NCBI GenBank assembly: GCA_041660165.1
Contig: JBAZWW010000007.1
Coordinates: 1 to 57,410, forward strand
Direction: 5' to 3'
DNA length: 57,410 nt
Source of the DNA: Patescibacteria group bacterium
Lineage (GTDB): Bacteria; Patescibacteriota; Patescibacteriia; UBA9934
The translations under genes and the position numbers were made by a program. This document shows, in pieces, positions 20,801-57,280 of this stretch. The notes under the pieces were generated by a model, which ran no database searches, was not told the origin of the DNA, and worked only from the letters and a program-made list of their open reading frames with translations. Within the stretch, counting starts at the first letter, position 1. Every line of letters starts with the position of its first letter.

Positions 20801-21290
20801 GCGAAATACCCGTCACTAATAGCTCTGAAGCTCCCCCCGTCCCGCCTATTCCCCCGCCCCCTCCACCCGCACCACCTCCGCCCCCTCCCGCACCACCAGC
20901 GCCCGTAGCACTCAAAAGTGCGGACAAGATAAAACTGACAATTGACCAAGAAAGCAGAATGATAACCAGCCCGATAGCTCCGCCAATCAAGATCTTCTTA
21001 GCTCTGCCCACTTTTTTCTCATCACCCGCAGCGGTCATCCACACAAATCCGCCGTAAAGCACAATGACCACCGCCACCACGCCAAGGAAAGAAATGGCCG
21101 TCCGGATAATCCGCGCAACAATAATCTTTGGATCAGTATTCCCAAGCCCGGTAGCATCGCCCACCGTGGTTAACCCGGTCTGGACATCACTAGTCTGCGC
21201 AAACGCCGGGACCGCAAATGCCAAGGAAGACACGGCGCTCAAAGCGACGAGTGACCCAAGCGCAAGTTGTTTAAGGCGTTTTATGTTCAC
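11805..21290 (-). CDS. giant multidomain surface protein (3161 aa): pilin-like membrane hairpin, poly-Gly linker, Ig-like and IPT/TIG repeats, Cys-rich repeats, C-terminal vWA
   Basis: Single uninterrupted 9486-nt ORF. Domain calls rest on motifs listed in the sub-features below. Antisense ORFs in the track are shadows. Confidence 0.9.
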   Translation of the reverse strand: MNIKRLKQLALGSLVALSAVSSLAFAVPAFAQTSDVQTGLTTVGDATGLGNTDPKIIVARIIRTAISFLGVVAVVIVLYGGFVWMTAAGDEKKVGRAKKILIGGAIGLVIILLSWSIVSFILSALLSATGAGGAGGGGGGAGGGGGGIGGTGGASELLVTGISPAGTITIQNALVRVTFSKSIDPASMNGQLKIVNSTTNVEVPGVSSVAGNTITFHPDAPCATPNETRFCFDASTAYSISVLPTLKSTAGLTLTCSTAKPCTGGFTSGAVVDTKNPVAHMTLPDNNQTVPADSTQPVQVQATDDAGVASAGFLVGDVLFDEVTATGADLKSVTIDDLWDTAGLENGKSYRVSAQVSDLAGNTDTDAVTVRVKPASCFNGILDTGSGETGIDCGGDALSPNFCGACSGGACTANADCGSGLCEAGRCVENPVINAVSPDSGAPGTYVTIAGTGFGSSAGKVSFTGANGPVEAVVAPCGGAWTDREIIVIVPATTVSGLITVTASGGTRKDDTANDHGPVLPNFAVNTVIHPNLCSLDKNSVSPTNSLGLIGDNFGANRGTSTVNFGTQGSAGSYSAWTNSSIMTTVPQMPNGTFPVSVSVNGISSNALSLRVASTVSTTGTLPSIATLSPATGGIGRYVTLDGANFGASKGTVKFVNRATGDSAIGSIDFPTACSAINPWTNNQIRFIVPAKYTSAVALAVGVYDVSVTTSSSQSSNTVPFTVTADDSAPNVCGVIPGTGAVGDTVSLVGNQFGTATGTVTFADGAQTNIASWSPTEIKVPVPSAAKTGAVKLVSSTGTKGNDTFFEVTSGVSAGAGSTAGYAWSFSTGAIPHVPQLVTECSADRVSAVPNNKFTDLVCTNAVVYAEFTEAMNEGTLNDAVKVDRCTGQGTNPCSAVISASGTLRTTPTSFTFIPGASLAVSSTYRVTVTTVAVSTGGAGLARDVSWTFVTQATSAPCTIDSVRVTPAKGVITLLGGTKSFSAVPTAGCVPVDSASYSWSWDASPSITRFNSAANPACVGGASACTTVEALAEGETPVTASETGSDIKSAGNLAINFLDPYVTGTWPACDSACPNAQVGGTFNIPMNSSSVERVGAVKLFSCAYELCTSVTEIGGVRASCVTVTGAQGLCTGFTLGNLALTPGTFYRAVISGSVTSESGVRLIQTNDGGDYSWTFRAREDGSACAVDRVALAPSAITLRSTGDRASFSSSAFGAADSCSASGQRLTGFSYSWAWTDPIKDQNIDNDSSTRVAEWLGGTMVDTSPSSVSTSCTASCTSKGSVAYSAICGDGTADALAGEECEDGNVANGDGCSSSCLREGNSTAGTTCGNGRVERSSSGAGEDCDDGNKADGDGCSSLCLAEGSRFVGATCGNHDIAADTTTKAGEECDDGNAKNGDGCSSQCLNEGTPTLASIGGAVCGDDRTDKPAENCDDGNIVNGDGCSSSCLLEGSSSRYTAPSVCGDIIPGTGEECEDGNRISGDGCSSTCLLEGSSAQYLVPSYCGDGNLGAGENYSCEVSAGGDGRIDPTQTAVVRDDAVFEVDAVTRMANASIEVKESSSGLSTTASLSLACSASSDRDCRDPRLNGAGTNNCCSLRPTAVPYPSSGTSVCLNQSLYAVFNQKMDTSSFTFKETAGAITTEKYRMYLSFHSLTAGACPSGYTYLAHDPKNIFAQARNAFVRFLTGASAEAAPNTGVACVLPIDGFDQVPQADGTYRVYLRYSKPLVPNTTYMLVVKGDEDISDAVTDGVRSATGVGMSGTVSSVFMTGPSLCSLDAVQVLDTNKKSPNAFTRGDDVHTFKTSALSYVGNATREIESLPGTYAWDYTAWAPANADLFTATRSATQHDLADVAVKGKNGRSTLLAEATITTDALGSTTGTPREKVVSGTAPLIAFLCENPWPELSKFPWEDTARGGANGLASQGANGWMNFSTYYCRDAGIAGVSDDLPGMTVVRPPVSQAGGVIKEYLFETADGSGDAIGVRVLSNPDYLSPRAWYTAQNFKGTPQETTIDGFLAVKDGRSTYVAAPNLGANVLYDNIYVISYNDGASDTTKKIADALLSSFAFASNMNDVTLCTVNGAVTSASCSADSDCPLSPISPRACSSVKAKVRRDIRRLSDMTDLRTEIKKYGTQNGVCSGTGAQLCSTGGECPGTESCIPIVPELSAGTFVRSIAVSPWPSWSDILGGALEMKDIAQDPLNVFSKNSCGNAGGPFVSFDSATCVDQSKGAYVCPVNSHVYHYIATGNRSARITADLEYSAQWGSPIDTDGPADRVDVLIGGAANTGNGFIPASYCVGVTYGTSASCGDGVIGGGETCELGQHGGLVVACDGNNDGVNDGFRSQVCNASCTAFVPDSGSACVSNACGNGLKEGAEECDDGAQNGKYGFCGFDCTRASGFSCGDGSLAGSEKCDCGSTPPLIGRRAFGGGICGGLNGVYQSSATSSCAWDCSGPASYCGDTKVDAGNGEVCDGNTDSYQGKLCTPGATKTGAPCTTDADCGSGGTCGMTALGPYAWADACPLSTVCTAGDPAKLGHICAQNSSCGTDGICSAQTYQTSRIRACGNGSNGTACQWVTPNYRFIKCTALSACGNGKKEGSEECDDGNTDSSDSCTNSCKTNVCGDGAYYVGVEECDLGVQNGQSCSSTYGSTCTACSVSCRNVVSSGAFCGDGVRNGTEFCDGSDVQLTYYDAGTGKTAGSCSTPTGFTTVGQDLYHCADLGICNGGPRNGEYCTNTTISSIPYDMTVCGTGIACVKPKCSNSCASACPFSFSTNPTLLLPNLPGSRASSSVELNSYSSSSTSLLPNAATLTIPACTLVGQLTGTVSMNNVTPPEVNIVFVTDRSGSMDWDFAGRSLYKADGVTINQNYVDPSRINAVKASLATAVNSVFTAFGEHAHISLVGFSGIAGTGMCTNPRPHNDLYNQSCDGVVDGECGAGGICTAKMQSQTVCTFGFCGKDAKTTLTSRINAYDAKAQNGTQTGLGLLSAKGLLDALPNASNTRNIIILLSDGQPEGTADALSVTNDAADSIKASQRDYEIYTVALTDTYSLIENMKKWSSNSFSLRTGPLETNTSNGVDYAYDAHTPTELASAYDGIIKSITGITVSLLSADANNTVVASSVVLHEGAGQVLPWPEFLKCDGVHEQQVPIHVSFGGTGQITISDVRLNYCAP
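12140..12821 (-). other. von Willebrand factor A (vWA) domain with MIDAS motif, interrupted by a Cys-rich insert
   Basis: VNIVFVTDRSGSMDW (the DxSxS MIDAS motif; Asp codon at 12792..12794), later NIIILLSDGQP and YTVAL. Confidence 0.7.
13010..14400 (-). repeat. Cys-rich repeat region, block 2 (degenerate CGDG/CGNG...ECD...C units)
   Basis: SCGDGVIGGGETCELG, ACGNGLKEGAEECDDGAQNGKYGFCGFDC, ACGNGKKEGSEECDDGNTDSSDSCTNSC, VCGDGAYYVGVEECDLG, FCGDGVRNGTEFCDG. Boundaries are approximate. Confidence 0.6.
16790..17445 (-). repeat. tandem Cys-rich repeats, block 1 (about 6 units; CG(D/N)G..EECDDGN..GDGCSSxC)
   Basis: CGDGTADALAGEECEDGNVANGDGCSSSC, CGNGRVE..GEDCDDGNKADGDGCSSLC, CGNHDI..GEECDDGNAKNGDGCSSQC and further units. 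Matches the myxococcal cysteine-rich repeat / DUF4215 pattern. Boundaries are approximate. Confidence 0.7.
18850..20000 (-). repeat. IPT/TIG-like Ig repeats (about 4-5 units) within the giant protein
   Basis: Recurring P-x-I-x-x-(V/L)-SP-x-x-G-x-x-G-x-x-V-T-(I/L)-x-G-x-x-FG units: PVINAVSPDSGAPGTYVTIAGTGFG, LPSIATLSPATGGIGRYVTLDGANFG, CGVIPGTGAVGDTVSLVGNQFG. Boundaries are approximate. Confidence 0.6.
20913..21152 (-). other. TrbC/VirB2-like (T4SS-pilin-like) two-helix membrane module of the giant protein, followed by a poly-Gly linker (20829..20906)
   Basis: GLGNTDPKIIVARIIRTAISFLGVVAVVIVLYGGFVWMTAAGDEKKVGRAKKILIGGAIGLVIILLSWSIVSFIL, then GAGGAGGGGGGAGGGGGGIGGTGG. Alignable with the N-terminus of the next gene. 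Confidence 0.6.
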
Positions 21291-21299
21291 AAAATTTCT

Positions 21300-23060
21300 T
21301 TAGAAGAGCGAACACGCGGTTGCTGAGGCCGTACCATTGCAACAATAGGGTTGGGATGCGGACACTCCGCATGTTCCGCCAGAAGCATCAGGGCCCACGG
21401 CGGGGACATAACAATTCTGGTACTCGTTGCGCAAATCCTGCGTTGCCTCTGTCCCGTAGACGTAGGATTTTCCATCCGTGGATTCAAGGAAAGTGCCGTG
21501 CGCAATGGTCACCACCGTTTGCGCAGGAACCTGGGAAGATGAAGCAACCACGTCGCCGTTTGCCGTCAAATACGAAAGTCTTGTCGAGTACCACATCTCA
21601 TGCGAAGTACCGCCTATCAGCTCCTTATTCGTCAACAGAATGCTATCTGATGATACTGAGGAACTCTGGAGAACGCCGTCAAACGTAGCCGTCACCGCCT
21701 GATCAAGCGGAACACTTTCTTCAGCAATGTTCGGGGCCACGGACAGGATCTTGGGGCCAGTGAGCGCAATGTCGCCCGTAGTTGAGAAGCTCCACGCATA
21801 CGCGTCCCCCGCCGAGCCATCACCGTTTCCATCAAGTGAATTTCCGGCCATATCCACCACGCCATTGTACGGGAAATTATCAGCCTGTGGCGGGGCTGTG
21901 GTGGTGGTTGCGGATTTTATGGAGACTGAGAGACTTGAACTGCCCGGCAAACACATGATGGTCTGACCGCAAGAATTTGTTCCGCAGGGATTTGCGGGAA
22001 CAAACGTCAGCGCTGTGTAGCCGTTGGAAATTTCATAGGTTCCCGGGGTAGTAGTTCCGCCCGCGCCAACCGTAATATTATCGAATCCGCTTGTGTCGCC
22101 CCTTGTACCGGTAGCTGAAGTGGGATCAATGGGCTCAGAAAATGTAGCCTGCACCGAAATATTCCTCGAATATGTGCCAGAATTCCCCGGAGTAACCGTC
22201 ACGATCGAAGGAGGCGTCAGATCGAGAACGGTGCCCGTTTCAAATGACCACTGGTATCCGCCGGAAAAACTCCCGCTAAAAATCTTGGCCCCGCCAACAT
22301 TCTTAATATCTGCGGTCAAGGCCACGGTGTACTGCACTTTGGCGCTGGCTGAACCAAGCGGATCCGCCAGCTTCAAAACAAACGTCTTGCCGTCAGCCGT
22401 GCCGTTCACCGTAATAGCACTTGCAGGCAAGGACGCCGTTGCCCCCTGCGCAGTTGGATAGATCTTCACTGAAGACGCAGTAACTGAAGCTGGATCAAGC
22501 GCATCCTTAAACGTAATCATGATCTTTGTATTCCTCGGAACACCGGTTTGATTTCTTGCCGGGAAGTGGTCGCGAATCGGTCCACTGCCGAGTGCTCCCG
22601 ACAATCGCTCAACAGACACCCCTCCGTTGTTAGCTCCCCCGCCTCCGGCCCCGCCAAAGCCCGTAGCCCCGCCAAGCGCGTTCACAATAAAGGTGGTGAT
22701 GCCGTACGCGCCAAGCGTGATCACGATACCAATCGTAGCGTTAATCAAGATGCTCTTCGCCTTCTCCACCTTCTTATGATCGCCTCCCGCTGTCATCCAA
22801 ACAAAACCGGCGTACATGAAGAGAATGAGAAAAACAACGCCCAGGATGCCAAGGAAAACACTAATAATCCGGCCTACCAGCGAAGGGAGGTCGGAATTTC
22901 CCAGCCCTGCCGTTTGCGCTACTTGATCCGTATTTGAAAGCGCCTCAGTCTGAGCAAACACCACCGGCGCGGAAACGAAAAAGCCCCCCGTCAGGACAAG
23001 GATTGTGAAAATAACATTCTTAGCCCAACGGCGTAGCATAGCTCCCGCACATTTTACCAC
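21300..23060 (-). CDS. surface protein (586 aa) with the same pilin-like N-terminal module plus Ig-like (SbsA/Big-type) repeats
   Basis: GLGNSDLPSLVGRIISVFLGILGVVFLILFMYAGFVWMTAGGDHKKVEKAKSILINATIGIVITLGAYGITTFIVNAL + GGATGFGGAGGGGANNGG (module about 22674..22910). The start could instead be Met8 at 23039. Confidence 0.85.
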   Translation of the reverse strand: MVKCAGAMLRRWAKNVIFTILVLTGGFFVSAPVVFAQTEALSNTDQVAQTAGLGNSDLPSLVGRIISVFLGILGVVFLILFMYAGFVWMTAGGDHKKVEKAKSILINATIGIVITLGAYGITTFIVNALGGATGFGGAGGGGANNGGVSVERLSGALGSGPIRDHFPARNQTGVPRNTKIMITFKDALDPASVTASSVKIYPTAQGATASLPASAITVNGTADGKTFVLKLADPLGSASAKVQYTVALTADIKNVGGAKIFSGSFSGGYQWSFETGTVLDLTPPSIVTVTPGNSGTYSRNISVQATFSEPIDPTSATGTRGDTSGFDNITVGAGGTTTPGTYEISNGYTALTFVPANPCGTNSCGQTIMCLPGSSSLSVSIKSATTTTAPPQADNFPYNGVVDMAGNSLDGNGDGSAGDAYAWSFSTTGDIALTGPKILSVAPNIAEESVPLDQAVTATFDGVLQSSSVSSDSILLTNKELIGGTSHEMWYSTRLSYLTANGDVVASSSQVPAQTVVTIAHGTFLESTDGKSYVYGTEATQDLRNEYQNCYVPAVGPDASGGTCGVSASQPYCCNGTASATACSLF

Positions 23061-32676: not shown

Positions 32677-33240
32677 ATGACCTTCATTCTAGTTGGGCTT
32701 GGAAATCCGGGAAATGAATATGAGCGAACCCGGCATAATACGGGGTATCTTGTGCTTGAGGCGCTCGCCAAGAAACTCAACGCCTCATTTAAAGGCAGGG
32801 ATGAGTTTCAGGCGGAAGTGGCTGAGGCAAACATTGGCGAGCATAAAGCCATCCTCGCTAAGCCCTGGACGTACATGAATGCGTCAGGACGCAGCGTTCA
32901 AGCACTCGCCCATTTCTACAAAGTGAAACCAGATCACGTGATTGTCATCTCAGATGATGTCTCCCTCCCGCTTGGCACACTCCGAGTGCGGACCGAGGGA
33001 TCAGCCGGCGGACACAATGGACTGAAATCAATTATCGTAAATTTAGGAACCGACGCCTTCCCGCGCGTGAAAATCGGCGTTGACGCCCAACCGGAAAATG
33101 TCCCGCTTGAAGCGTGGGTGCTGTCCCGGTTCTCAAAAGATGAAATGAAAATCCTGAACGAAGTGATTGAACAAGCGGTCGAAGTGCTTCAAGGCATGAT
33201 CAAACATGGCATCAAAGTGACAACCGTCAAAGAGCTATGA
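32677..33240 (+). CDS. pth: peptidyl-tRNA hydrolase
   Basis: LVGLGNPGNEYERTRHNTGY, GGHNGLKS. Confidence 0.93.
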   Translation: MTFILVGLGNPGNEYERTRHNTGYLVLEALAKKLNASFKGRDEFQAEVAEANIGEHKAILAKPWTYMNASGRSVQALAHFYKVKPDHVIVISDDVSLPLGTLRVRTEGSAGGHNGLKSIIVNLGTDAFPRVKIGVDAQPENVPLEAWVLSRFSKDEMKILNEVIEQAVEVLQGMIKHGIKVTTVKEL

Positions 33241-34337
33241 CGGATCATTTTTTGGTTGCACTGGCAAACTGCCCGGCCATTGGCGCCAAGTCAGTTGAAA
33301 GGCTTCTTGCACATTTCCTGACCGCGGAAGCCGCTTGGCACGGGGATGAAGACGAAATAAAAACACTCGGCATTGGCGAAGAACGAGCGAACGGATTCCT
33401 TACGTTTCGGCGAAACACCGAGCCATCAGGATTCGTAGACATACTCGAAAAAAATGAGATACGGATGATCACGCAAGCAGATGCTGAGTATCCGTCGCTT
33501 CTCAAAACTATTTCCGATGCACCGTTTTTTCTTTTCCTGCAAGGCGCCCCGCTCAAAGAACCGTGCATTTCTATAGTTGGCTCACGAGACTTTTCTCCCT
33601 ACGGAAAAAAGTGCGCTCAAACCTTTGCCAAAACACTTGCCGCGAATGGGATATCCATCATTTCCGGCCTGGCCACTGGCATTGACACTATTTCTCATCA
33701 GTCAGCCATGGAAGCGGGCGGGCATACCGTAGCCGTTCTTGGCGGAGGACTACTGGCCTATAACGGCATGGACAGAGAAAACACTGCTGGAAAAATGCGC
33801 TCATCTGGCAGCACGTTGCTGACCGAGTTCGGCCTTCACTCCCCCTTTGCCAAACATCACTTCCCCATGCGCAATCGCATCATTGCGGGTATGAGCAAAA
33901 TCACGCTCGTAGTTGAAGCAGCGCTCCCTTCAGGATCACTCCTCACTGCGGATCATGCCCTGGCATCCGGCCGAGAAGTATTTGCCGTTCCAGGACCAAT
34001 TGATTCAAAAACCTCAGCCGGAACAAATCGCCTCATAAAGGACGGGGCCATGGTAGCCACCAGTCCGGACGATATTCTGCTCTCACTCGGCATTTCCAAA
34101 CGCATCTACGGAGATAGCATCGCCAGTGAACCTAAACCGCCGATGGTAGTAAAGCCTCCTCCAGAACTTTCTGGATCCTTGGTTCTTTATGCCTGTCTGG
34201 CTGAGGGGTCGCTCTTTGCAGACGAGTTATCACTAAAAACAAAGCTAACGCCGTCAGAAGTCTCGCAGACACTGTTCGAGCTTGAGGTCATGGGTCATGT
34301 ACGCAATCTTGGCGGAACAAGATATGAACGCGTCTGA
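33237..34337 (+). CDS. dprA: DNA-processing protein DprA
   Basis: SGLATGIDTISHQSAMEAGGHTVAVLGGGL, FPMRNRIIAG, plus a C-terminal winged-helix-like tail. Conserved dprA-topA order. Confidence 0.9.
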   Translation: MTDHFLVALANCPAIGAKSVERLLAHFLTAEAAWHGDEDEIKTLGIGEERANGFLTFRRNTEPSGFVDILEKNEIRMITQADAEYPSLLKTISDAPFFLFLQGAPLKEPCISIVGSRDFSPYGKKCAQTFAKTLAANGISIISGLATGIDTISHQSAMEAGGHTVAVLGGGLLAYNGMDRENTAGKMRSSGSTLLTEFGLHSPFAKHHFPMRNRIIAGMSKITLVVEAALPSGSLLTADHALASGREVFAVPGPIDSKTSAGTNRLIKDGAMVATSPDDILLSLGISKRIYGDSIASEPKPPMVVKPPPELSGSLVLYACLAEGSLFADELSLKTKLTPSEVSQTLFELEVMGHVRNLGGTRYERV

Positions 34338-34339
34338 TC

Positions 34340-34425
34340 GCCGGTAAGATATTCACATGTAAAAATTGTGGTCGGCGCACAAGGCGGGCCTCCCAACAAT
34401 TTTTACATGTGAATATCTTACCGGC
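34340..34425 (-). repeat. core-hairpin element A (86 nt): perfect 30-bp outer stem, core in minus orientation
   Basis: GCCGGTAAGATATTCACATGTAAAAATTGT (34340..34369) pairs perfectly with 34396..34425. The interior reads, on the minus strand, AAAAATTGTTGGGAGG-CCCGCCTTGTGCG-CCGACCACAATTTTT. Starts 3 nt after the dprA stop. Confidence 0.9.
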
Positions 34426-34432
34426 TTAGTGA

Positions 34433-34508
34433 GGCGGACAACAGGTTTTCCAAAAATTTGTTGGGAGGTACTCCGACCACAAATTTTCTGGGAAACCTGT
34501 TGTCCGCC
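34433..34508 (+). repeat. core-hairpin element B (76 nt): unrelated outer stem, 36-nt core at 34452..34487
   Basis: GGCGGACAACAGGTTTTCC-AAAAATTTGTTGGGAGGTACTCCGACCACAAATTTT-CTGGGAAACCTGTTGTCCGCC. One bulge in the outer stem. Confidence 0.9.
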
Positions 34509-34572
34509 GAACGCTCCGCTTGACTATCATGTATCATTCGGGCTAACAATTCGGCTTCCTCACCTATTTTCT

Positions 34573-36843
34573 ATGTCCACCCTCCTCATTGTTGAGTCTC
34601 CTACCAAGGCCAAAACCATTAACAAATTCTTGGGATCAAAATACAAAGTGATCTCCTCCTTTGGCCACATCAGAGATCTGCCGGAACGCGAAATGGGCGT
34701 AGACGTTAGCCATAATTTCAAACCAACATACATTGTTCCTGATGACAAAAAGGATAAAGTAAAAGCGCTCAAGGACGCAGCCAAGGACGCCACAGAAATC
34801 TACTTGGCAACTGACGAAGACCGCGAGGGAGAAGCCATCGCCTGGCACATTGCGGAAGTCCTCAAGATGAATGAGAAGACCGCCAAGCGGATAACTTTTC
34901 ATGAAATCACCAAGTCCGCCATTGAGCACGCTCTTGAACAATCCCGCCATTTGGACATGAACATGGTGGACGCTCAGCAGGCGCGCCGAATTCTGGATCG
35001 CCTTGTGGGGTATGAGCTGTCACCGCTTCTATGGAAAAAGGTTCGCAGGGGACTGTCCGCCGGCCGGGTGCAGTCCGTAGCAGTGAAACTCGTCGTAGAG
35101 CGCGAACGAGAACGCCTAGCTTTCAAAACGGACGAGTACTGGTCTATTGAGGCCGACTTTGAAAAAGGCGGGCATCTTTTCCCAAGCAAACTCATTGGTA
35201 TTGGCGAGCGAAAAATCGACAAACTCGACATCAAGAATGAGGCTGAAGCCAAAAAGATTGTTGAGGACGTGACCGGTGCCAACTTCATCGTAACCTCCGT
35301 TGAGGAAAAGGACGCGGCCAAGAAACCGCCCACGCCTCTCACCACTTCCACTCTTCAACAAGAGGCCTACAACCGCCACGGCATGAGCGCTAAGCAGACC
35401 ATGACCATTGCGCAAAAACTGTATGAGACCGGCCTCATCTCTTACATGCGTACAGACTCGCTCAATTTGAGCACGCAGTTCTTAGAGGCGGCCCAATCCT
35501 ACATTAAGAAGGAGTTCGGAAACGAGTACGCGCTTGGTTCCGTGGCGTATCACACCAACAAAAAAGGCGCCCAAGAGGCCCACGAAGCTATCCGCCCAAC
35601 GGACGTAAATACCTCGCCAGACACCGTGACTGAGAAGCTCGACCCCGGGATGGCGAAGTTGTATGACCTCATTTGGCGCCGAACCGTTGCCTCACAGATG
35701 CCGTCAGCCAAGATCCGCAGAACCGCCATTGATCTCACGGGCAATGAACACACCTTCCGCGCCAACGGATCCACAGTGGTGTTTGACGGCTACATGAAGG
35801 TTTGGCAGGCCTCAGAGGACAAACTCCTCCCCACGCTCGCCAAGGGCGATGACATTGGCAAGGCAAAGGAAATCAAGCCCGAACAGCATTTTACAGAACC
35901 GCCAGCCCGCTATTCTGACGCCTCGCTCATCAAAATTCTCGAAGAACACGGCATCGGCCGTCCATCCACGTACGCGCCTACGCTCGCCACCATTGAAAGC
36001 CGGGAATACGTGTTGCGTGATGACAACAAGCGTCTCTATCCATCAGACATCGCCATGATCGTCACAGATTTGCTGGCCGAGCATTTCCCGCAAATAGTTG
36101 ATTACGAATTCACGGCCAAGATGGAAAAACAGTTTGATGATATTTCCGAAGGCCAAGAATCCTGGACAAAAGCCATTGGCGATTTCTATACCCCGTTCCA
36201 TAAATTAATCGAGGAAAAAACCGCAGATCTCTCGCGCTCGGACGTGATGAAAGAGCGCTCGCTCGGCACTGATCCGGTAAGCGGTCTTGAGGTCATTGCC
36301 CGGAACGGTCGCTTTGGCCCGTTCGTCCAGCTTGGACCCGTGACAGATGATGTAAAGCCTAAGCGGGCATCTCTTGAAAGGCATCAGGCGCTTGAAACCA
36401 TCACCCTGGCTGATGCCATGAAGCTCTTTGTCCTCCCCCGCTCCCTTGGCCAGCATCCTTCGGGCTATGAAATCATTGCCAACACCGGACGTTTTGGCCA
36501 CTACCTCAAATGCGGAGAAATGAACATCTCGCTCCCCATGGGCTTTGACCCCAAGACCATCACCCTTGAACAGGCCATTGAACTCTGCACCACGGGCGTA
36601 GCCAAAAAGACGCAGATGATGACACCCATCGCAGAACTCGGCGAAGACCCGGCCACAAAAAGCAAAATCCTGGTCAAAGACGGGCGCTACGGACCATACA
36701 TCACGGACGGCAAAACAAACGTCACCGTGCCAAAAGACATGGATCCAAAAACGGTTACCAGGGAGCTGGCGATTACGATGCTCGAAAAGAAAAGAAAAGC
36801 GCCAAAGCGCAAATGGGGCAAGAAAAAACAAACCGAGGATTAA
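34573..36843 (+). CDS. topA: DNA topoisomerase I (zinc-ribbon-free, GRxGP(Y/F)-repeat C-terminus)
   Basis: Start MSTLLIVESPTKAKTINKFLG (Toprim). Active-site region YMRTDS. C-terminal repeats GRFGPFVQLG, GRFGHYLKCG, GRYGPYITDG, with no CxxC pairs. The ORF-track start at 34366 runs through hairpins A/B and is rejected. Confidence 0.93.
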   Translation: MSTLLIVESPTKAKTINKFLGSKYKVISSFGHIRDLPEREMGVDVSHNFKPTYIVPDDKKDKVKALKDAAKDATEIYLATDEDREGEAIAWHIAEVLKMNEKTAKRITFHEITKSAIEHALEQSRHLDMNMVDAQQARRILDRLVGYELSPLLWKKVRRGLSAGRVQSVAVKLVVERERERLAFKTDEYWSIEADFEKGGHLFPSKLIGIGERKIDKLDIKNEAEAKKIVEDVTGANFIVTSVEEKDAAKKPPTPLTTSTLQQEAYNRHGMSAKQTMTIAQKLYETGLISYMRTDSLNLSTQFLEAAQSYIKKEFGNEYALGSVAYHTNKKGAQEAHEAIRPTDVNTSPDTVTEKLDPGMAKLYDLIWRRTVASQMPSAKIRRTAIDLTGNEHTFRANGSTVVFDGYMKVWQASEDKLLPTLAKGDDIGKAKEIKPEQHFTEPPARYSDASLIKILEEHGIGRPSTYAPTLATIESREYVLRDDNKRLYPSDIAMIVTDLLAEHFPQIVDYEFTAKMEKQFDDISEGQESWTKAIGDFYTPFHKLIEEKTADLSRSDVMKERSLGTDPVSGLEVIARNGRFGPFVQLGPVTDDVKPKRASLERHQALETITLADAMKLFVLPRSLGQHPSGYEIIANTGRFGHYLKCGEMNISLPMGFDPKTITLEQAIELCTTGVAKKTQMMTPIAELGEDPATKSKILVKDGRYGPYITDGKTNVTVPKDMDPKTVTRELAITMLEKKRKAPKRKWGKKKQTED

Positions 36844-36855
36844 ATCCTCGGTTTT
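36833..36855. terminator. bidirectional hairpin CCGAGGAT-TAA-ATCCTCGG + TTTT containing both convergent stop codons
   Basis: The topA TAA (36841..36843) forms the loop. The stop of the convergent gene (36840..36842) overlaps it in the palindrome TTAA. Confidence 0.6.
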
Positions 36856-37850
36856 GCTTTTGTGTATGACTTGAGCGCCTTGCTGGAAATTTCCTCCTGC
36901 GTGTGTGCGTCAAGGAACAAGAGATGGAAGCCGTCACTCTTCCGCACAGGAATTACCGCCAGCTTGCCAACAGCTCCCTCCGTAAACCACAGGCGGAGCA
37001 AGCCATCATTCTGCACCGCCTCCTGGGCCAAGCGACGGGCAAAGAGATCAATAGAAAGTTCGTCATCCACGCCGTGATAGCCGTACAGCCGTGGATTATC
37101 CACAATAATTCTTGCCAGCGTCTGGGTAATCCCATCCCCCGGCTTCACGATCGCCTTTTCAAAGTGCTCGGGAATTAAGACCGAATGATCGCCTGTCTCC
37201 GTATTGGTCATCCTGCGCGCTAACGAGGAATCTGATTGCACGCGATCACTCTTAGAAATCTCCTTCAGCTCATGCACGGCATCATCCGCAGAAAACGCCG
37301 AAAGCGCATCATCAATCCGCAATCGGAGATCAGTAATTGTCAGCGTATCCATGGTTGGCATCGCATCCCAGAGAGCTAGCGTGGCATACGCATATGCTCG
37401 GGCGCGCAAAATTTCACCAAGCGCCAGAAGCCCGTTATACGCACGCTCCTTTTTGTTTGCGCCAACGGGAAAAACAAGCTTGCCCGCGCGCTGAGCAAAC
37501 GCCGTTGCCACCGCCTCTCGGGCTCGATCAGGGGAAACGGCGCTAGAAACAATGACCGTTTGGGCATGCAAAGCGTGGCGCCCGGCTGTCTGGCGCAATT
37601 TCGCAAAGGCCGGATTGCTCGCCCCGCCCTTCACGGCATTCTCAAGAATCTTGGCCATAGCCCGCCCGCAGTCATCGTCCGCTTTCACCCTCTGCTCCTC
37701 CGCCTCAACCCAAAGTTTTTGCAGACTTGCCATGATCCGGCTCCTGTTCGCAGGCTCCAAAGAACGCAAAGCTTCTACGCGCTCCGCCATCCGCTTTGAC
37801 CGCTCATGGAGAGCGTCGTATTCAATCGCGTGATTGTTGAGCTTCGTCAT
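36840..37850 (-). CDS. hypothetical protein (336 aa), third gene of the orphan operon
   Basis: ATG at 37850..37848 overlaps the upstream TGA (ATGA coupling). The ORF-track start at 37892 is less likely. No TM helix or signal peptide. No recognised family, apart from a weak LysM-like stretch IVKPGDGITQTLARII. Confidence 0.6.
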   Translation of the reverse strand: MTKLNNHAIEYDALHERSKRMAERVEALRSLEPANRSRIMASLQKLWVEAEEQRVKADDDCGRAMAKILENAVKGGASNPAFAKLRQTAGRHALHAQTVIVSSAVSPDRAREAVATAFAQRAGKLVFPVGANKKERAYNGLLALGEILRARAYAYATLALWDAMPTMDTLTITDLRLRIDDALSAFSADDAVHELKEISKSDRVQSDSSLARRMTNTETGDHSVLIPEHFEKAIVKPGDGITQTLARIIVDNPRLYGYHGVDDELSIDLFARRLAQEAVQNDGLLRLWFTEGAVGKLAVIPVRKSDGFHLLFLDAHTQEEISSKALKSYTKAKPRI

Positions 37851-44331: not shown

Positions 44332-44383
44332 CCAATTACCAAGCCGAACGATTCTAACAAAAACTTAACGGGTTCGCAAGGAC

Positions 44384-44415
44384 AAAAAATATTCGTCCAA
44401 GGACGAATATTTTTT
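44384..44415 (-). terminator. 15-bp A/T-flanked hairpin AAAAAATATTCGTCC-AA-GGACGAATATTTTTT abutting the tRNA-fMet 3' end
   Basis: Perfect inverted repeat. Its last T is shared with the encoded CCA. Confidence 0.75.
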
Positions 44416-44491
44416 GGTTGCGGGGGTCGGATTTGAACCGACGACCTCCGGGTTATGAGCCCGACGAGCTGCCTGGCTGCTCTACCCCGCG
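44415..44491 (-). tRNA. initiator tRNA-fMet (anticodon CAT), CCA encoded
   Basis: C1-A72 mismatch, and three G-C pairs closing the anticodon stem (CGGGCTCATAACCCG). Near-identical in pattern to E. coli tRNA-fMet. Confidence 0.93.
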
Positions 44492-44525: not shown

Positions 44526-44545
44526 GCCGGAAACTCGATGTTAAG

Positions 44546-44667
44546 AAAAACGCCATAAAATGTGTCCTGGCTAGAAGACGACGAGCACCGGCCGAGCCGT
44601 ACTTACTGGTACGGTGAGGACGGAGCGCAGAAGTCGACAACGCCAGGGCGCATTTTATGGGGTTTTT
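44546..44667. repeat. 122-nt long imperfect hairpin between two tRNA genes (possible relative of the core-hairpin family)
   Basis: 26-nt arms AAAAACGCCATAAAATGTGTCCTGGC / GCCAGGGCGCATTTTATGGGGTTTTT (3 mismatches). Apical CCGTAC-TTACTG-GTACGG. A CCGAGCC/GGTGAGG segment gives tandem G.A mismatches flanked by GC pairs. T-runs on both sides. Confidence 0.75.
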
Positions 44668-44669
44668 CC

Positions 44670-51760: not shown

Positions 51761-53155
51761 CTACGCTAGCTTAATATTGGCTTCCTTTAGCGCTTTTTCT
51801 GAGACAAGTGACGGGGCGCCAAGCATCAGATCACGAGCATTGCCGTCCTTAGGGAAAGCAATAACTTCGCGGATGTTCGGTTCATTCGCCAAGATCATCA
51901 CAATGCGGTCAATGCCCGGGGCAATGCCTCCGTGAGGCGGAGCACCGAACTCAAAAGCCTCAAGCATGTGGCCAAATCGGCGCTGAATGTTTTCCTCATC
52001 CATGCCCATGATTTCAAGCACTTTTCTCAGCGCCTCTGCCTTATGGTTGCGGATACTGCCTCCGCCGGCTTCATACCCGTTCAGTACAATGTCATACTGC
52101 GTCGTCAAAATCTCGGCAATATTCTCTTTCTTCATGAGGGACTCCATGAACTCCGGCTTTGGCGCAGAGAATGGGTTGTGAGTAAACGTCCACCCGCCGT
52201 CTTCCGTCCTCTCAAAGAATGGGAAGTCGAGCACCCAACAGAACGCAAGCAGGTTCGGATCATTCTTGTCCTCGCGCAAATCCGGCTTATCAACTCCATA
52301 CTTCTCCATTGCCTCTTTGTAGGATAGTCGAGGAAAAGGAATCTGCTGAATGCGCTTTTCTGGCGTGCATGTCTTCACCATGTCGATCATCAATCCCTCA
52401 ATGAGCTGAAGGATGTCCTCGCGCTCAACAAATGACGCTTCAAGGTCAAGTTGCGTGAAGTCCGGCTGGCGGTCTCCGCGCTGGTCTTCATCGCGGAAAC
52501 AGCGCGCAATCTGAAAGTAGCGTTCCACGCCGGCCACCATGAGTAATTGCTTGAACTGTTGCGGGGATTGCGGAAGCGCGTAAAACGTTCCCGGATGCAA
52601 ACGCGAAGGCACAATAAATTCACGCGCGCCCGTCTCACCGGTGCTCTTGGTCAGCATCGGCGTCTCTACTTCAACGAACCCTTTGTCATGCAAATATCCG
52701 CGGAAAAAGTTCGTTACCTTATCGCGCAAACGCATGTTCTTCTGCATGCGTTCACTCCGAAGATCGAGATATCGATAGCGTAGTCTGGTTTCTTCGCCCA
52801 CCGGACTAGTGTCCGTGTTGATCTCAAACGGCGGAGTCTTGGCTTCATTGAGTACCTTAACTGACTTCGCTAAGAGCTCAACCGTGCCGGTTTTCAGCTT
52901 ATCGTTTATCTGTTTGGCGCCACGGGCCTGCACCACGCCTTCAATCTCAATCACCCACTCTGGCCGAACCTTATTCGCAAGTTCAGCGGATTCGCCAACC
53001 TCAGAAGGAACGACAACGATTTGGAGCAAGCCATCCTTATCCCGCAGGTCAAAAAACGCCACTTTGCCCATATCTCGTCTGGCGTGAACCCAACCAGCCA
53101 CCTTCACTGTCTCCCCCACCTTCCCGACCGTTTCTGACGTAAATATTCTTTGCAT
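51761..53155 (-). CDS. aspS: aspartyl-tRNA synthetase, bacterial-type core lacking the GAD insertion domain (464 aa)
   Basis: OB fold [74 protein letters not shown]. Only about 13 aa separate DKPDLR from WVLDFP. Confidence 0.9.
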
Positions 53156-53190
53156 ATATTGAACCGTTAATGTGTCTGGACGGGGCCATC

Positions 53191-53305
53191 GGAATGTTGC
53201 TGGCGACAGCTCGGAATCGCAATTTTTGGGAGGTCGATTTCCATCGTATTTTCAGAAATAGTTCGACCGACCGAAATTGCCCGAGCCAAGCCAGCAACAT
53301 CCCGC
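53191..53305 (+). repeat. core-hairpin element D (115 nt) inside the aspS 5' leader
   Basis: Outer arms CGGAATGTTGCTGGC / GCCAGCAACATCCCG, then GCTCGG/CCGAGC, GCAATTT/AAATTGC, then TT-GGGAGG-TCGA...TCGA-CCGACC-G. This is the same GGGAGG/CCGACC helix as elements A-C. Confidence 0.75.
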
Positions 53306-53321
53306 TGGCCTATAAAAACGA

Positions 53322-53456
53322 AATAAAAACTCGCCCTCACATCACAATCCACTTAAGAATTATGTGCTAAGGGCGAATTTCTCCGCGGTGCCACCTTGCT
53401 TTGTACTTTTATCTTCAGTTTTTGCACAACGCGGTTGTCAGGCGCGTCCAACTACC
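53322..53456 (-). promoter_or_regulatory. T-box riboswitch leader (Asp specifier) with terminator/antiterminator
   Basis: On the minus strand: T-box sequence AGCAAGGUGGCACCGCGG (53384..53396 core). Antiterminator AAGG[UGGCACC]GCG-loop-CGC-CCUU. Competing terminator UCGCCCU...AGGGCGA + UUUUUAUUU (53322..53377). Short hairpin ACGCG-CCUGACAAC-CGCGU presents GAC followed by A (codon at 53438..53440). Confidence 0.8.
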
Positions 53457-53462
53457 CAAAGA

Positions 53463-53490
53463 CCATAGCGCAACCAGAAAAGTTGTCAAG
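53463..53490 (-). promoter_or_regulatory. candidate aspS leader promoter: -35 TTGACA (53485..53490), 16-nt spacer, -10 TATGGT (53463..53468)
   Basis: Read on the minus strand. Confidence 0.4.
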
Positions 53491-53563
53491 GTGGATAAAC
53501 CCTATTGCTTCCGCGGGGATGCGTGATATTTTAAAATGGTCCCCCAGACACAGGAGTTAGACC

Positions 53564-55853: not shown

Positions 55854-56636
55854 CTAAATGTTGACCTTCGGCTCTGGCGTCAAAATCTCCGGACCGTCAG
55901 GCAAGAGCGCAACAGTCACCTCAAAATGCGCAGCCATAGATGAATCCTCGGTCACAATAGTCCAGCCGTCCTTAGCCGTCACCACCTCATCGGTCCCAAG
56001 AGTAACCATCGGTTCAATGGCGAGACACATGCCCTCCTTCAAATCCACCTTCCCAAAACTTTTATTCACGTAGTTCGGCACGTGCGGAGACTCATGCACC
56101 GCATGGCCAACGCCATGACCCACGAGCGCCTTCACAATGCCATACTTTTTCTGGTTCACGGCACCTTCGGTAGCCTCGCTAATGTCGCGCACAACACCGC
56201 CTACTTTGGCCGCCCGAACCCCGGCGCGCATAGCTTCCCTGGTAACCCGCATAAGCTCCATCAAGTCCGGCGAGACCTTACCCACAGGCACCGTCACCGC
56301 CATGTCTGTGCACAATTCCTTATACCAGCAACCAATATCGAGCCCGACAATATCGCCTTCGTTCAACACAATATCGCGCGAACCAACTCCATGAACCACC
56401 TCTTCATTCACCGAAATACAAACGGTCGAGGGAAAGGGAATCTTGTTCCCGCCCTTATAGCCCAAAAATGACGGCTTACCACCACCCTCTTCGATCACTG
56501 TTCTGGCAATATCATCGAGTACACGCATCGTCACTCCCGGCTTTATCGCGTCAACCGCCGCCTGAAGAGCTCTCGACAACAACGCTCCGCCTTCTCTCAT
56601 TGCTTGAATTTCCTCACTCGTCTTTATCAGGGCCAT
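55854..56636 (-). CDS. map: type I methionine aminopeptidase
   Basis: Start MALIKTSEEIQAMREG. Metal ligands in DIGCWY..., GHGVGHAVHE, EPM. The ORF-track GTG start at 56702 lies inside hairpin C and is rejected. Confidence 0.92.
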   Translation of the reverse strand: MALIKTSEEIQAMREGGALLSRALQAAVDAIKPGVTMRVLDDIARTVIEEGGGKPSFLGYKGGNKIPFPSTVCISVNEEVVHGVGSRDIVLNEGDIVGLDIGCWYKELCTDMAVTVPVGKVSPDLMELMRVTREAMRAGVRAAKVGGVVRDISEATEGAVNQKKYGIVKALVGHGVGHAVHESPHVPNYVNKSFGKVDLKEGMCLAIEPMVTLGTDEVVTAKDGWTIVTEDSSMAAHFEVTVALLPDGPEILTPEPKVNI

Positions 56637-56654
56637 AGTGTGTATTGATCTTGA

Positions 56655-56729
56655 GGCGCAAATGATGTATTTGAAAAATTTGTTGGGAGGTACTCCGACC
56701 ACAAATTTTGAGAATACATCATTTGCGCC
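56655..56729 (+). repeat. core-hairpin element C (75 nt): third unrelated outer stem, 36-nt core at 56674..56709 identical to element B
   Basis: GGCGCAAATGATGTATTTG-AAAAATTTGTTGGGAGGTACTCCGACCACAAATTTT-GAGAATACATCATTTGCGCC. Its last base is shared with the adk stop codon. Confidence 0.9.
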
Positions 56730-57280
56730 TATAACACGAACAGCTTCTGGATTCTCTCAGCCACCTCGTCAATGGTCCCCATCCCGTCTACCTCGCGCAC
56801 AATCCCTTGCTTCCGGTATTCTTCAATGATCGGCACTGTATCGGTAGAATAAATCGTCAATCTCTTCTCAATCACCTCCGGCGTGTCATCTGTTCGCCCC
56901 TCTAGAACGGCTCGCTTTTCTAGGCGAGCTCTGGACTCTCGCCTGGGGATATCAATCACGATGACTGCCGTCGGCTGTTCAAAGCCTGAAAAAGCCCGCA
57001 TCTGTTCAAAGTTCCGCGGGAACCCGTCCAAGATGTACCCGTCCGCAACGTCTGGCTGCATGAGGCGCTTTCTTAGCACTGCCTCAGCTATAACATCAGA
57101 CACCAGATTCCCCGTCTCAACAACGGAGCGAACCTGTTGCGCCAATTCCCCCTCCCCTTTTGCCTCTTCACGGAGCAAATGTCCCATGGACAGGTAGGGT
57201 ATCCCAAGAAACTCTGAGAGTTTGGCTGCCTGCGTCCCCTTCCCGCACCCCTGAGGCCCTAAAATAAGTATTCTATGCAT
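56729..57280 (-). CDS. adk: adenylate kinase (short-LID form, 183 aa)
   Basis: P-loop GPQGCGKGTQA, ILDGFPR. LID reduced to LEGRTDDTPEVIEKRL, with no Cys4 or long insert. Confidence 0.92.
   Translation of the reverse strand: MHRILILGPQGCGKGTQAAKLSEFLGIPYLSMGHLLREEAKGEGELAQQVRSVVETGNLVSDVIAEAVLRKRLMQPDVADGYILDGFPRNFEQMRAFSGFEQPTAVIVIDIPRRESRARLEKRAVLEGRTDDTPEVIEKRLTIYSTDTVPIIEEYRKQGIVREVDGMGTIDEVAERIQKLFVL

What the first reader, a model, noticed from the sequence alone, without database searches (positions are those of the whole stretch)
34340..34508. Family of long intergenic hairpins: conserved 36-nt core, completely different self-complementary outer stems
Two hairpins lie back to back between dprA and topA, and more occur elsewhere.

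Shared core:
- Elements B (34433..34508) and C (56655..56729) share an identical 36-mer, AAAAATTTGTTGGGAGGTACTCCGACCACAAATTTT.
- Element A (34340..34425) has the same core inverted, with a 13-nt loop replacing TACT.
- Element D (53191..53305) keeps the GGGAGG/CCGACC helix.

Outer stems:
- The 19-30-bp outer stems share no sequence between copies, yet each is nearly perfectly self-complementary.
- A transposed MITE would instead have conserved ends and a variable middle.

Core fold:
- The core folds as an A/T stem, a bulged T, then GG/CC, tandem G.A/A.G, then GG/CC.
- Alternatively it folds as a GGAG-GUA-CUCC mini-hairpin.

Orientation relative to transcription varies: B is sense, while A, C and D are antisense. 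This argues for a DNA-level role or one that does not depend on orientation.

I do not recognise this element.
Basis: seen in the sequence. Interest (0 to 1): 0.7.

Follow-up and report, generated by a model that had tools for sequence, protein, structure and literature searches.

The report
Palindromic intergenic repeat family in Patescibacteria
The hairpins are real copies of an undescribed 75-130-bp palindromic repeat family in a narrow group of uncultivated Patescibacteria; they resemble the REP/ERIC-type repeats of better-known bacteria, and the whole hairpin, not only its tip, is the repeated unit.

Summary
Four very stable hairpins (A 34340-34425, B 34433-34508, C 56654-56730, D 53184-53310) share an apex with GGAGG...CCGAC, and B and C share an exact 36-mer. 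Nine more copies were found in relatives; the window is a metagenome contig of an Uhrbacteria-like Patescibacterium.

Pairing is strongly supported: 26 of 33 pairs show compensatory changes and 92% of cells are paired.

The outer stems are not unrelated. Paralogous arms keep residual similarity around a shared RATGTT motif, and copies at different loci in different genomes share their arms. The whole hairpin is therefore the unit, with conservation falling from apex to base.

The copies are not efficient terminators. They lie inside operons and in a 5' leader, in either orientation, lack U-tracts, and the genome has ordinary terminators elsewhere.

Presence is patchy. The A/B pair is shared by three ingroup genomes and absent from two outgroups. 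The adk-map site is filled, empty or occupied by a different hairpin.

Copies within a genome resemble each other more than their orthologs do, which indicates concerted evolution.

Best reading: a lineage-specific REP/ERIC-like palindromic repeat whose invariant asymmetric apex is a recognition module. The mobilising or binding factor is unknown. No Rfam, phage, plasmid or E. coli match was found.

The parts
34340..34425 (-). Element A. The GGAGG..CCGAC ('sense') strand is the minus strand. It has a perfect 30-bp arm pair and a 13-nt insert in the apical loop. It starts 2 nt after the dprA stop codon.
   Evidence: 78 bits
34433..34508 (+). Element B, sense on the plus strand. It forms an inverted doublet with A, separated by a 7-nt linker.
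   Evidence: 79.5 bits
34452..34487 (+). Core of B: A/T stem, bulged T, GG/CC, tandem G.A/A.G, GG/CC and a TACT loop. It is identical to the core of C.
56654..56730 (+). Element C, in the adk-map spacer inside the ribosomal-protein/secY operon and antisense to it. Its base overlaps the adk stop codon, and it ends 17 nt before the map start codon.
   Evidence: 83.6 bits
56674..56709 (+). Core of C (the exact 36-mer).
53184..53310 (+). Element D, a diverged and enlarged member. Its outer arm GGCCATCGGAATGTTGCTGGC resembles the family arms. It has an extra inner helix, the GGGAGG/CCGACC apex and a 33-nt apical insert. It lies between the T-box-like terminator and the aaRS start codon, antisense to the gene.
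   Evidence: not recovered by model R1
33237..34337 (+). dprA, the gene upstream of A/B.
34573..36843 (+). topA. A conserved promoter-like block (TTGAC.. to TA.CAAT, about 34519-34553) lies between B and the start codon in all four ingroup genomes.
55854..56636 (-). map (methionine aminopeptidase), downstream of C.
56729..57280 (-). adk (adenylate kinase), upstream of C.
51761..53155 (-). Class II aminoacyl-tRNA synthetase gene whose 5' leader contains D.

Best explanation
This is a lineage-specific family of short palindromic intergenic repeats, functionally of the REP/REPIN-ERIC kind. It is carried by a narrow clade of Uhrbacteria-like Patescibacteria.

Shown:
- The repeated unit is the whole 75-85-bp hairpin (longer when the apex carries inserts), not only the 36-nt core.
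- Copies have been gained and lost in very short intergenic spacers. Some of these lie inside operons, and copies occur in either orientation.
- Copies within a genome resemble each other more than their orthologs in other genomes do.
- Arm complementarity has survived divergence at which fourfold-degenerate sites in the adjacent topA gene are saturated.

Inferred:
- Copies are passively co-transcribed.
- The arms stay complementary because a mutation in one arm is copied into the other by intrastrand template switching (quasipalindrome correction), possibly helped by selection for the hairpin.
- Within-genome similarity reflects gene conversion among copies or turnover from a master copy.
- The apex is never 'corrected' to a perfect palindrome. 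It consists of a 1-3-nt pyrimidine-rich bulge, RG/CY, tandem G.A/A.G, GG/CC and a TAMY tetraloop. It is therefore under purifying selection, most likely as the recognition site of a trans-acting protein that reads the folded GGAGG strand.
- Whether that protein mobilises the element (as HUH/Y1 enzymes do for REPs) or is a host nucleic-acid-binding factor is not known.
For: The family is real:
- Thirteen copies were found in seven genomes or populations.
- Two copies not used to build model R1 were still recovered by it: L019C at 76 bits and L023 at 62.5 bits.
- A Logan contig ends inside the core of B, as expected where an assembly meets a repeat.

The structure is supported:
- 92.4% of cells are paired and 26 of 33 pairs have double changes. 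No shuffle out of 500 reached these values, and slid controls gave 35-48% pairing.
- Pooled over the 12 copies compared, the arms have 331 Watson-Crick positions out of 360 aligned.

The whole hairpin is the unit:
- The arms of paralogues are significantly similar.
- L010E sits between murA and an M50 peptidase gene, and L019C sits between adk and map. They are 81% identical, arms included.

Gain and loss:
- The A/B doublet is in the same place and orientation in the window, L013 and L015. L014 has only B.
- The dprA-topA spacer is only 36-38 nt in the relatives with 76% and 79% TopA identity.
- The adk-map spacer is filled in the window, L019 and L023. It is 2 nt long in L018. L016 and L017 carry a different hairpin there.
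- D is absent from L018. F is present only in L015.

Concerted evolution:
- winB-winC are 78% identical against 74% for winB-L014B. L014B-L019C are 83% against 71% for L019C-winC.
- The apex pair is G-C in every copy from the window, L010 and L023, and A-T in every copy from L013, L014, L015 and L019.

Long persistence:
- Fourfold sites of topA are saturated at 32-46% identity, while orthologous elements are 62-81% identical and still fully paired.

Not terminators:
- C, D, F and E leave no room for a promoter before the next gene.
- The scan found no terminator-like site at A/B.
- The core alone folds at only -3.5 to -12.3 kcal/mol, against -15 to -18 for the genome's canonical A-tract/stem/T-tract terminators.

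Template switching is documented to make quasipalindromes more perfect (PMC7202029). Compensatory changes across hairpins are described for REPINs (PMC3116915).
Against: - No transposase, HUH/Y1 or integrase gene was seen in the 57-kb window or in the gene tables of the related loci.
- No target-site duplication and no conserved terminal motif were found.
- No pair of identical full-length copies was seen, so recent transposition is not shown.
- Density is low, about 1 copy per 10-20 kb.
- Retention of the A/B doublet past synonymous saturation could equally indicate host function.
- Transition-type arm mismatches are biased: 11 are G.T on the GGAGG strand and 1 is G.T on the other strand (D excluded; partly non-independent). 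Pure DNA-duplex maintenance does not predict this bias.
- That L014 and L019 come from one genome is inferred only from their shared sample.
Confidence: 0.55

Rival explanations
1. The hairpins are host-functional RNA elements. Long double-stranded stems in intercistronic and UTR positions would act as RNase III processing sites or exonuclease barriers that set the relative stability of operon segments. The apex would bind a host RNA-binding protein.
For: - All copies lie in transcribed spacers, often 0-3 nt after a stop codon.
- Stems are 25-35 bp long, which from general knowledge is long enough for RNase III.
- Covariation is strong.
- The A/B pair has persisted beyond synonymous saturation.
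- ERIC and REP elements are reported to affect mRNA stability in enterobacteria (PMC2229807).
Against: - Presence at a given spacer is patchy among close relatives: empty in L018, and a different hairpin in L016.
- Both orientations occur, so the conserved tandem G.A apex would be present in the mRNA only for B and E.
- G.U pairs are rare (about 3% on the sense strand, 0.3% on the other). That is atypical for old RNA helices under structural selection.
- No expression data are available.
Confidence: 0.2
2. A roughly 36-bp mini-hairpin element repeatedly inserts into the loops of pre-existing hairpins, including older copies of itself. The apex is therefore young and conserved, and the outer arms are older.
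For: - winB and winC show a sharp step: 36 of 36 identical in the core, then about 60% in the arms.
- D looks nested, with a family-like outer arm, a second inner helix and then the apex.
- A and D carry extra DNA exactly in the apical loop.
- The apex variant is genome-specific.
Against: - Empty sites in L018 and L020 contain no pre-existing hairpin.
- In the L014B/L019C and L015A/L015F pairs, similarity decays gradually into the arms rather than stopping at a fixed boundary.
- The genome's real terminators carry no core.
- Gene conversion explains the same pattern.
Confidence: 0.1
3. The elements are a DNA-level protein-binding signal, for example a DNA-uptake sequence 'dialect' or a chromosome-organisation site, embedded in a palindrome.
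For: - Copies are independent of orientation relative to transcription (2 sense, 4 antisense loci) and, as inferred from GC skew and gene direction, relative to replication (about 4 to 2).
- The apex variant is genome-specific, which resembles uptake-sequence dialects.
- Copies lie next to dprA and near recO and ruvX.
Against: - Copy density is far below that of known uptake sequences (own knowledge).
- A duplex binding site needs neither 25-bp complementary arms nor a conserved mismatch pair.
- Copies are never found within genes.
Confidence: 0.07
4. The elements are unusual intrinsic (possibly bidirectional) transcription terminators.
For: - A/B sits between the end of the dprA operon and the conserved topA promoter-like block.
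- The core has an A-tract, a small G+C hairpin and a T-tract.
Against: - C and the copies at L019 and L023 lie between adk and map. F and E lie 15-17 nt upstream of the next start codon. D lies between a T-box-like terminator and its gene. Termination at any of these would silence essential genes.
- No U-tract follows the full hairpin, and the scan found no terminator-like site.
- The core hairpin is weak.
- Canonical terminators exist elsewhere in the window.
Confidence: 0.03

Closest known systems
REP / REPIN elements (RAYT-associated repetitive extragenic palindromes)
   Same: - Both are short extragenic imperfect palindromes that are co-transcribed and occur in either orientation.
- Both occur as inverted doublets (A/B here).
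- Both show compensatory changes that keep a long hairpin (PMC3116915).
- The 36-nt core has the size and form of a REP: a stem with a bulge and mismatches plus a small loop.
   Different: - There is no GTAG or CGTC tag at the foot.
- No RAYT gene was seen.
- The conservation pattern is inverted. In REPINs the two flanking REPs are conserved and the central spacer varies. Here the centre is conserved and the arms vary.
- Density is much lower.
ERIC/IRU and other bacterial MITE-like palindromes (Correia, RUP, YPAL)
   Same: - Both are units of about 80-130 bp whose transcripts form one long stem-loop.
- Both are intergenic, often inside operons, and occur in both orientations.
- Both have size variants caused by internal inserts.
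- Both show patchy filled and empty sites among relatives (PMC2229807).
   Different: - There is no sequence similarity to ERIC: no match in E. coli genomes, plasmids or phages.
- There are no conserved terminal inverted repeats, no TA ends and no target-site duplication.
- The ends are the least conserved part.
Integron attC sites
   Same: - Both are hairpins defined by structure rather than sequence.
- Both show strand-specific features such as extrahelical bases.
- Both have a variable apical insert length.
- Both lie immediately after stop codons. (The attC properties come from my own knowledge.)
   Different: - In attC the conserved boxes are at the base of the hairpin (R''/R') and the apex is variable. 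Here it is the opposite.
- The flanking genes are core housekeeping genes, not cassettes.
- No integrase gene is nearby.
TIGR stem-loop arrays (Tas/Nop-domain systems of phages and parasitic bacteria)
   Same: Both occur in Patescibacteria-type organisms and have variable but consistently palindromic stems around a loop with short conserved motifs (PMC12045711).
   Different: - TIGR units form tandem arrays next to a Tas gene, and their loops carry two variable 8-12-nt spacers.
- Here the copies are dispersed singlets or one doublet, the apex is constant, and no Nop-domain gene is nearby.

Membership tests
REP/REPIN | Short (20-40 nt) imperfect palindrome, repeated and extragenic | tested here: met
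   The 36-nt core is an imperfect palindrome, and all 13 copies are intergenic.
REP/REPIN | GTAG or CGTC tetranucleotide tag at one end (abstract of PMC3733652, as listed) | tested here: not met
   The feet of the cores and of the full hairpins (GGCGG, GCCGG, GGGCC, GGTGG, GGAAT and others) carry no consistent GTAG or CGTC.
REP/REPIN | A RAYT (Y1/HUH transposase) gene in the genome, flanked by the repeats | not testable with these tools
   There is none in the window or in the fetched loci. The rest of the genome could not be retrieved.
REP/REPIN | Predominantly inverted doublets with conserved flanking REPs and a variable central spacer | tested here: not met
   One doublet locus (A/B) stands against four or more singlet loci. 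Conservation is highest at the centre, not at the flanks.
MITE (IS-derived) | Terminal inverted repeats conserved among copies | tested here: not met
   The ends are the most divergent part. The invariant columns are all in the core.
MITE (IS-derived) | Target-site duplication flanking the insert | tested here: not met
   No direct repeat flanks any copy. Comparisons of filled and empty sites (window against L018, L020) show none, but these relatives are too diverged for a clean test.
ERIC/IRU | Sequence homology to the ERIC consensus of enterobacteria | tested here: not met
   blastn (word size 11) of element C against 5,426 E. coli genomes found no match. The A/B doublet had no match in plasmids or phages.
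Intrinsic terminator | G+C-rich stem directly followed by a U-tract | tested here: not met
   The terminator scan found none at A/B. The sequences after the full hairpins lack T-runs.
Intrinsic terminator | Located at the ends of transcription units | tested here: not met
   C, D, E and F lie within operons or a 5' leader, 15-29 nt from the next start codon.
Integron attC | Conserved R''/R' (GTTRRRY) boxes at the hairpin base, a cassette array and intI | tested here: not met
   The bases of the stems are variable and G+C-rich, the neighbours are dprA, topA, adk, map and an aaRS gene, and there is no integrase.
TIGR stem-loop array | Tandem array next to a Tas (Nop-domain) gene, with variable spacers in the loops | tested here: not met
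   The copies are dispersed, the apex is constant, and no Nop-domain hit appears in the Pfam tables.
Any Rfam family | Score at or above the family's gathering threshold | tested here: not met
   Only tRNAs passed the gathering threshold. At E <= 10 there were only generic miRNA-precursor hits far below threshold.

The most novel reading that the evidence does not exclude
The invariant asymmetric apex is a structure-specific recognition module that is read on one folded strand. It consists of a pyrimidine bulge, two pairs, tandem G.A/A.G, two G-C pairs and a TAMY loop. An as yet unidentified Patescibacterial machinery would read it: either a single-strand DNA transposase or recombinase that copies whole hairpins without target duplications, or a dedicated nucleic-acid-binding factor. 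That would make this the first repeat-plus-enzyme system described for the Candidate Phyla Radiation. The 11:1 bias of G.T-type arm mismatches towards the GGAGG strand, and the failure of palindrome correction to erase the apex mismatches, are the observations that point this way.
Probability: 0.2. Interest if true: 0.65.

Novelty: new variant of a known kind. Interest (0 to 1): 0.42.

Why it matters
I found no described interspersed repeat family for Patescibacteria (CPR), whose genomes are small and compact. Two literature searches and Rfam found nothing comparable.

A family that (i) keeps 25-35-bp palindromes almost perfect past synonymous saturation, (ii) evolves in concert within genomes, and (iii) carries an invariant asymmetric apex would be useful in three ways:
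- It offers a natural system for studying palindrome maintenance in organisms thought to have reduced repair capacity.
- It is a practical marker of contig breaks in the assemblies of this clade.
- It is a handle for finding the unknown protein that recognises the apex.

If the elements affect mRNA stability inside essential operons such as adk-map, they would also matter for gene expression in these organisms.

Tried and rejected
- Rfam at the gathering threshold and at E <= 10 found nothing relevant.
- The pattern scan of GTDB genomes and of JGI metagenomes used the window's own core variant (TTGTTGGGAGG..CCGACCACAA). It returned chance-level hits plus one true relative, L010. The pattern was too specific to detect the AGGAGG/CCGACT variant of the relatives, so it says little about distribution.
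- Viral contigs had no match with either core variant. Phage, plasmid and E. coli blastn found no match.
- The terminator hypothesis was rejected on position, lack of a U-tract and the weak core hairpin.
- attC and TIGR unit readings were rejected on architecture and gene context.
- The Shine-Dalgarno or anti-Shine-Dalgarno mimicry of AGGAGGU / ACCUCCU was considered. No start codon follows the motif, most copies are antisense, and the few start codons inspected here lack an upstream SD-like sequence. It was not pursued.
- A K-turn reading of the tandem G.A was rejected, because two Watson-Crick pairs separate the bulge from the G.A pairs.
- A search for a mobilising enzyme in the window found none.
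- The RT-like ORF next to adk in L016/L017 is a fragment (the C-terminal part of RVT_1) with no group II intron RNA signal. No link to the hairpins could be made.
- The strand-bias test against GC skew gave about 4 to 2 and is not informative.
- A sliding-window MFE scan for further hairpins was too noisy to use.
- The DNA of the 586-kb contig that carries P0007 could not be fetched. Only its gene coordinates were usable.

Full report
**1. What is there**

- A (34340-34425) has a perfect 30/30-bp arm pair.
- B (34433-34508) and C (56654-56730) share the exact 36-mer AAAAATTTGTTGGGAGGTACTCCGACCACAAATTTT. It occurs twice in the window and never in shuffles.
- A carries the same core on the other strand, with 13 nt in place of the TACT loop.
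- D (53184-53310) keeps GGGAGG...CCGACC around a 33-nt insert.

Predicted energies are -39 to -70 kcal/mol, with z-scores of -8.4 to -13.7. On the GGAGG ('sense') strand the apex folds as A/T stem, bulged T, GG/CC, tandem G.A/A.G, GG/CC and a tetraloop. Rfam has nothing like it.

**2. Source and context**

The window is an ENA metagenome contig, ERZ27249449 k141_1617898. The named TopA relatives are annotated as Patescibacteria or Candidatus Uhrbacteria.

Gene context:
- A/B lies between the dprA stop codon and a conserved promoter-like block upstream of topA.
- C lies between adk and map, inside the ribosomal-protein/secY operon.
- D lies between a T-box-like terminator and the start codon of a class II aaRS gene.

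No transposase-like gene is present in the window.

**3. Relatives**

Syntenic contigs were fetched through TopA and Map homologues.

At the dprA-topA spacer:
- The window, L013 and L015 all have the doublet: A inverted, then B direct, 2-7 nt apart.
- L014 has only B.
- The relatives with 79% and 76% TopA identity have spacers of only 38 and 36 nt and no element.

At the adk-map spacer:
- The window, L019 and L023 carry the element, always antisense to the operon.
- L018 has a 2-nt spacer.
- L016 and L017, the closest relatives by Map (94%), carry an unrelated branched hairpin built of NTCAGGT heptamers.

Other loci:
- D is missing in L018, where the T-box-like terminator is followed directly by the gene.
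- L015 has an extra copy, F, between two genes that abut in the window.
- L010 has a copy, E, between murA and a peptidase gene.

A covariance model built from ten copies recovered two copies it had not seen: L019C at 76 bits and L023 at 62.5 bits. It found nothing else in about 195 kb. Density is therefore roughly one copy per 10-20 kb in the ingroup and zero in the outgroup loci. A Logan contig of the same species ends inside the core of B, as expected at a repeat.

**4. Structure is strongly supported**

On the ten-copy alignment, 92.4% of cells are paired and 26 of 33 pairs show changes on both sides. There are 89 compensated cells. No shuffle out of 500 reached these values, and slid partners gave only 35-48% pairing. 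Pooled over the 12 copies compared, the arms have 331 Watson-Crick positions out of 360 aligned.

Within the apex, the pair flanking the G.A tandem is G-C in the window, L010 and L023, and A-T in L013, L014, L015 and L019. This is a compensated change shared by all copies of a genome. The G.A/A.G mismatches, the GG/CC pairs and a 1-3-nt pyrimidine-rich bulge on the 5' side are present in every copy.

**5. The outer stems are not unrelated**

When the arms are anchored on the core they share a recurrent RATGTT motif.
- B and C arms match at 12 of 20 positions (p = 0.004). L014B and L019C also match at 12 of 20 (p = 0.0065).
- The mean over 43 paralogous pairs is 9.3 matches against 7.4 expected (z about 9.9; the pairs are not independent).
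- L010E and L019C, at different loci in different genomes, are 81% identical over their full length, arms included.
- The outer arm of D also resembles the family arm.

The repeated unit is therefore the whole hairpin, with conservation falling from apex to base.

**6. Evolutionary behaviour**

Fourfold-degenerate sites of topA are saturated among these genomes, at 32-46% identity. Orthologous elements are nevertheless 62-81% identical and still almost perfectly paired.

Copies within a genome are more alike than orthologues:
- winB-winC 78% against winB-L014B 74%.
- L014B-L019C 83% against L019C-winC 71%.
- The cores of L015A and L015B are exact reverse complements over 31 nt.

This is concerted evolution, produced by gene conversion or by turnover from a master copy. 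That L014 and L019 belong to one genome is inferred from their shared sample.

**7. What it is not**

*Not an efficient terminator.*
- C, E and F sit 15-17 nt, and D 29 nt, upstream of the next start codon with no room for a promoter. D lies between a riboswitch-type terminator and its gene.
- The full hairpins lack U-tracts, and the scan found no terminator-like site.
- The core alone folds at -3.5 to -12.3 kcal/mol, against -15 to -18 for the genome's canonical terminators at 44383-44416, 36823-36861 and 871-902.

*Not a member of the other families considered.*
- It is not an attC site, because the conserved part is the apex rather than the base and there are no cassettes.
- It is not a TIGR unit, because there is no array, no spacers and no Tas gene.
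- It is not ERIC by sequence.
- It is not a classical MITE, because it has no conserved ends and no target-site duplication.
- It lacks the GTAG/CGTC tag of REP superfamilies.

**8. Most likely mechanism**

Shown:
- It is a multi-copy palindromic unit that is gained and lost in short transcribed spacers.
- It occurs in both orientations.
- Its arms covary.
- It evolves in concert within genomes.
- Its asymmetric apex is invariant.

Inferred:
- The arms are kept complementary largely by intrastrand template switching. This is known to convert quasipalindromes into more perfect ones (PMC7202029).
- The scarcity of wobble pairs (about 3%) fits a DNA-level process better than slow RNA-level compensation.
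- The same process should erase the apex mismatches and bulge. Their invariance therefore implies purifying selection, most simply because a protein recognises the folded apex.
- Transition-type arm mismatches are G.T on the sense strand 11 times and on the other strand once (D excluded; partly non-independent). This hints that the GGAGG strand is the one that must fold.
- Whether the recogniser is a mobilising enzyme, as RAYTs are for REPINs (PMC3116915), or a host factor cannot be decided here.
- Effects on mRNA stability, as reported for ERIC (PMC2229807), are possible but untested.

**9. Orientation**

Relative to transcription there are 2 sense loci (B, E) and 4 antisense loci (A, C, D, F). 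GC skew is negative along the whole plus strand, so the minus strand is probably the leading strand. Sense strands then lie about 4 to 2 on the lagging-strand sequence; the placement of E and F rests on gene direction and synteny. Neither ratio is informative at this sample size.

**10. Verdict**

This is a real, undescribed, lineage-restricted palindromic repeat family. In kind it resembles REP/REPIN and ERIC elements but meets none of their membership criteria. Its conservation gradient is inverted: the apex is conserved and the ends are free. Interest is moderate. It would rise if a genome-wide census reveals an associated enzyme or a strand-specific mechanism.

Noticed in passing
window 44545-44668 (also L013 20358-20482, L015 19838-19959): A hairpin of about 125 nt with 27-nt inverted-repeat arms lies between two tRNA-Met genes and is conserved in three genomes. 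Its 70-nt middle is inverted in the window relative to L013 and L015: 56-57 of 70 identical to their reverse complement, against 40-42 of 70 in the forward direction. It has no Rfam match at E < 1. It may be an invertible segment or an unannotated small RNA.
   Followed up: partly
window about 53320-53560 (minus strand); L018 13195-13297: A T-box-like leader lies upstream of the class II aaRS gene. There is a weak RF00230 hit at 53369-53401, and the terminator hairpin is conserved in L018. Element D is inserted between this terminator and the start codon.
   Followed up: partly
L016 3352-3493 (and L017): The closest relative by Map (94%) has a different element in the adk-map spacer. It is a perfect 21-bp stem built of NTCAGGT heptamer repeats that encloses a branched interior (-74 kcal/mol). 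The site seems to be a hotspot for hairpin elements.
   Followed up: partly
L016 806-2799: About 2 kb of extra DNA lies between secY and adk, with a 135-aa ORF that matches only the C-terminal part of RVT_1 (E = 2.8e-7). No group II intron RNA signal was found. It is probably a decayed reverse-transcriptase element.
   Followed up: partly
window 44383-44416, 36823-36861, 871-902: These are canonical bidirectional intrinsic terminators (A-tract, short G+C stem, T-tract). They show that the organism uses ordinary terminators that are distinct from the hairpin family.
   Followed up: yes
window 10817-10840 and 10904-10927: The palindrome GGCGGGGTTTGAAACCCCGCC occurs twice, 87 nt apart, inside an ORF that encodes TSP3-type repeats (10319-10972, minus strand).
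   Followed up: no
window 11805-21290 (minus strand): This is a 3161-aa ORF. The adjacent 586-aa ORF (21300-23060) corresponds to the gene that carries T4SS_pilin and Big_5 domains in the gene tables of the window's contig and of the relatives. Several neighbouring large ORFs have no Pfam match.
   Followed up: no
window 34519-34553; L013, L014, L015 just upstream of position 10001: A strongly conserved promoter-like block with an internal palindrome (TTGACG-ATGATGTATCAT-...-TATCAAT) lies upstream of topA in all four ingroup genomes. It may be an operator for topA regulation.
   Followed up: no
whole window: GC skew is negative along the entire plus strand (-0.04 to -0.15), and most genes are on the minus strand. 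The window therefore lies within one replichore, with the minus strand as the leading strand.
   Followed up: yes
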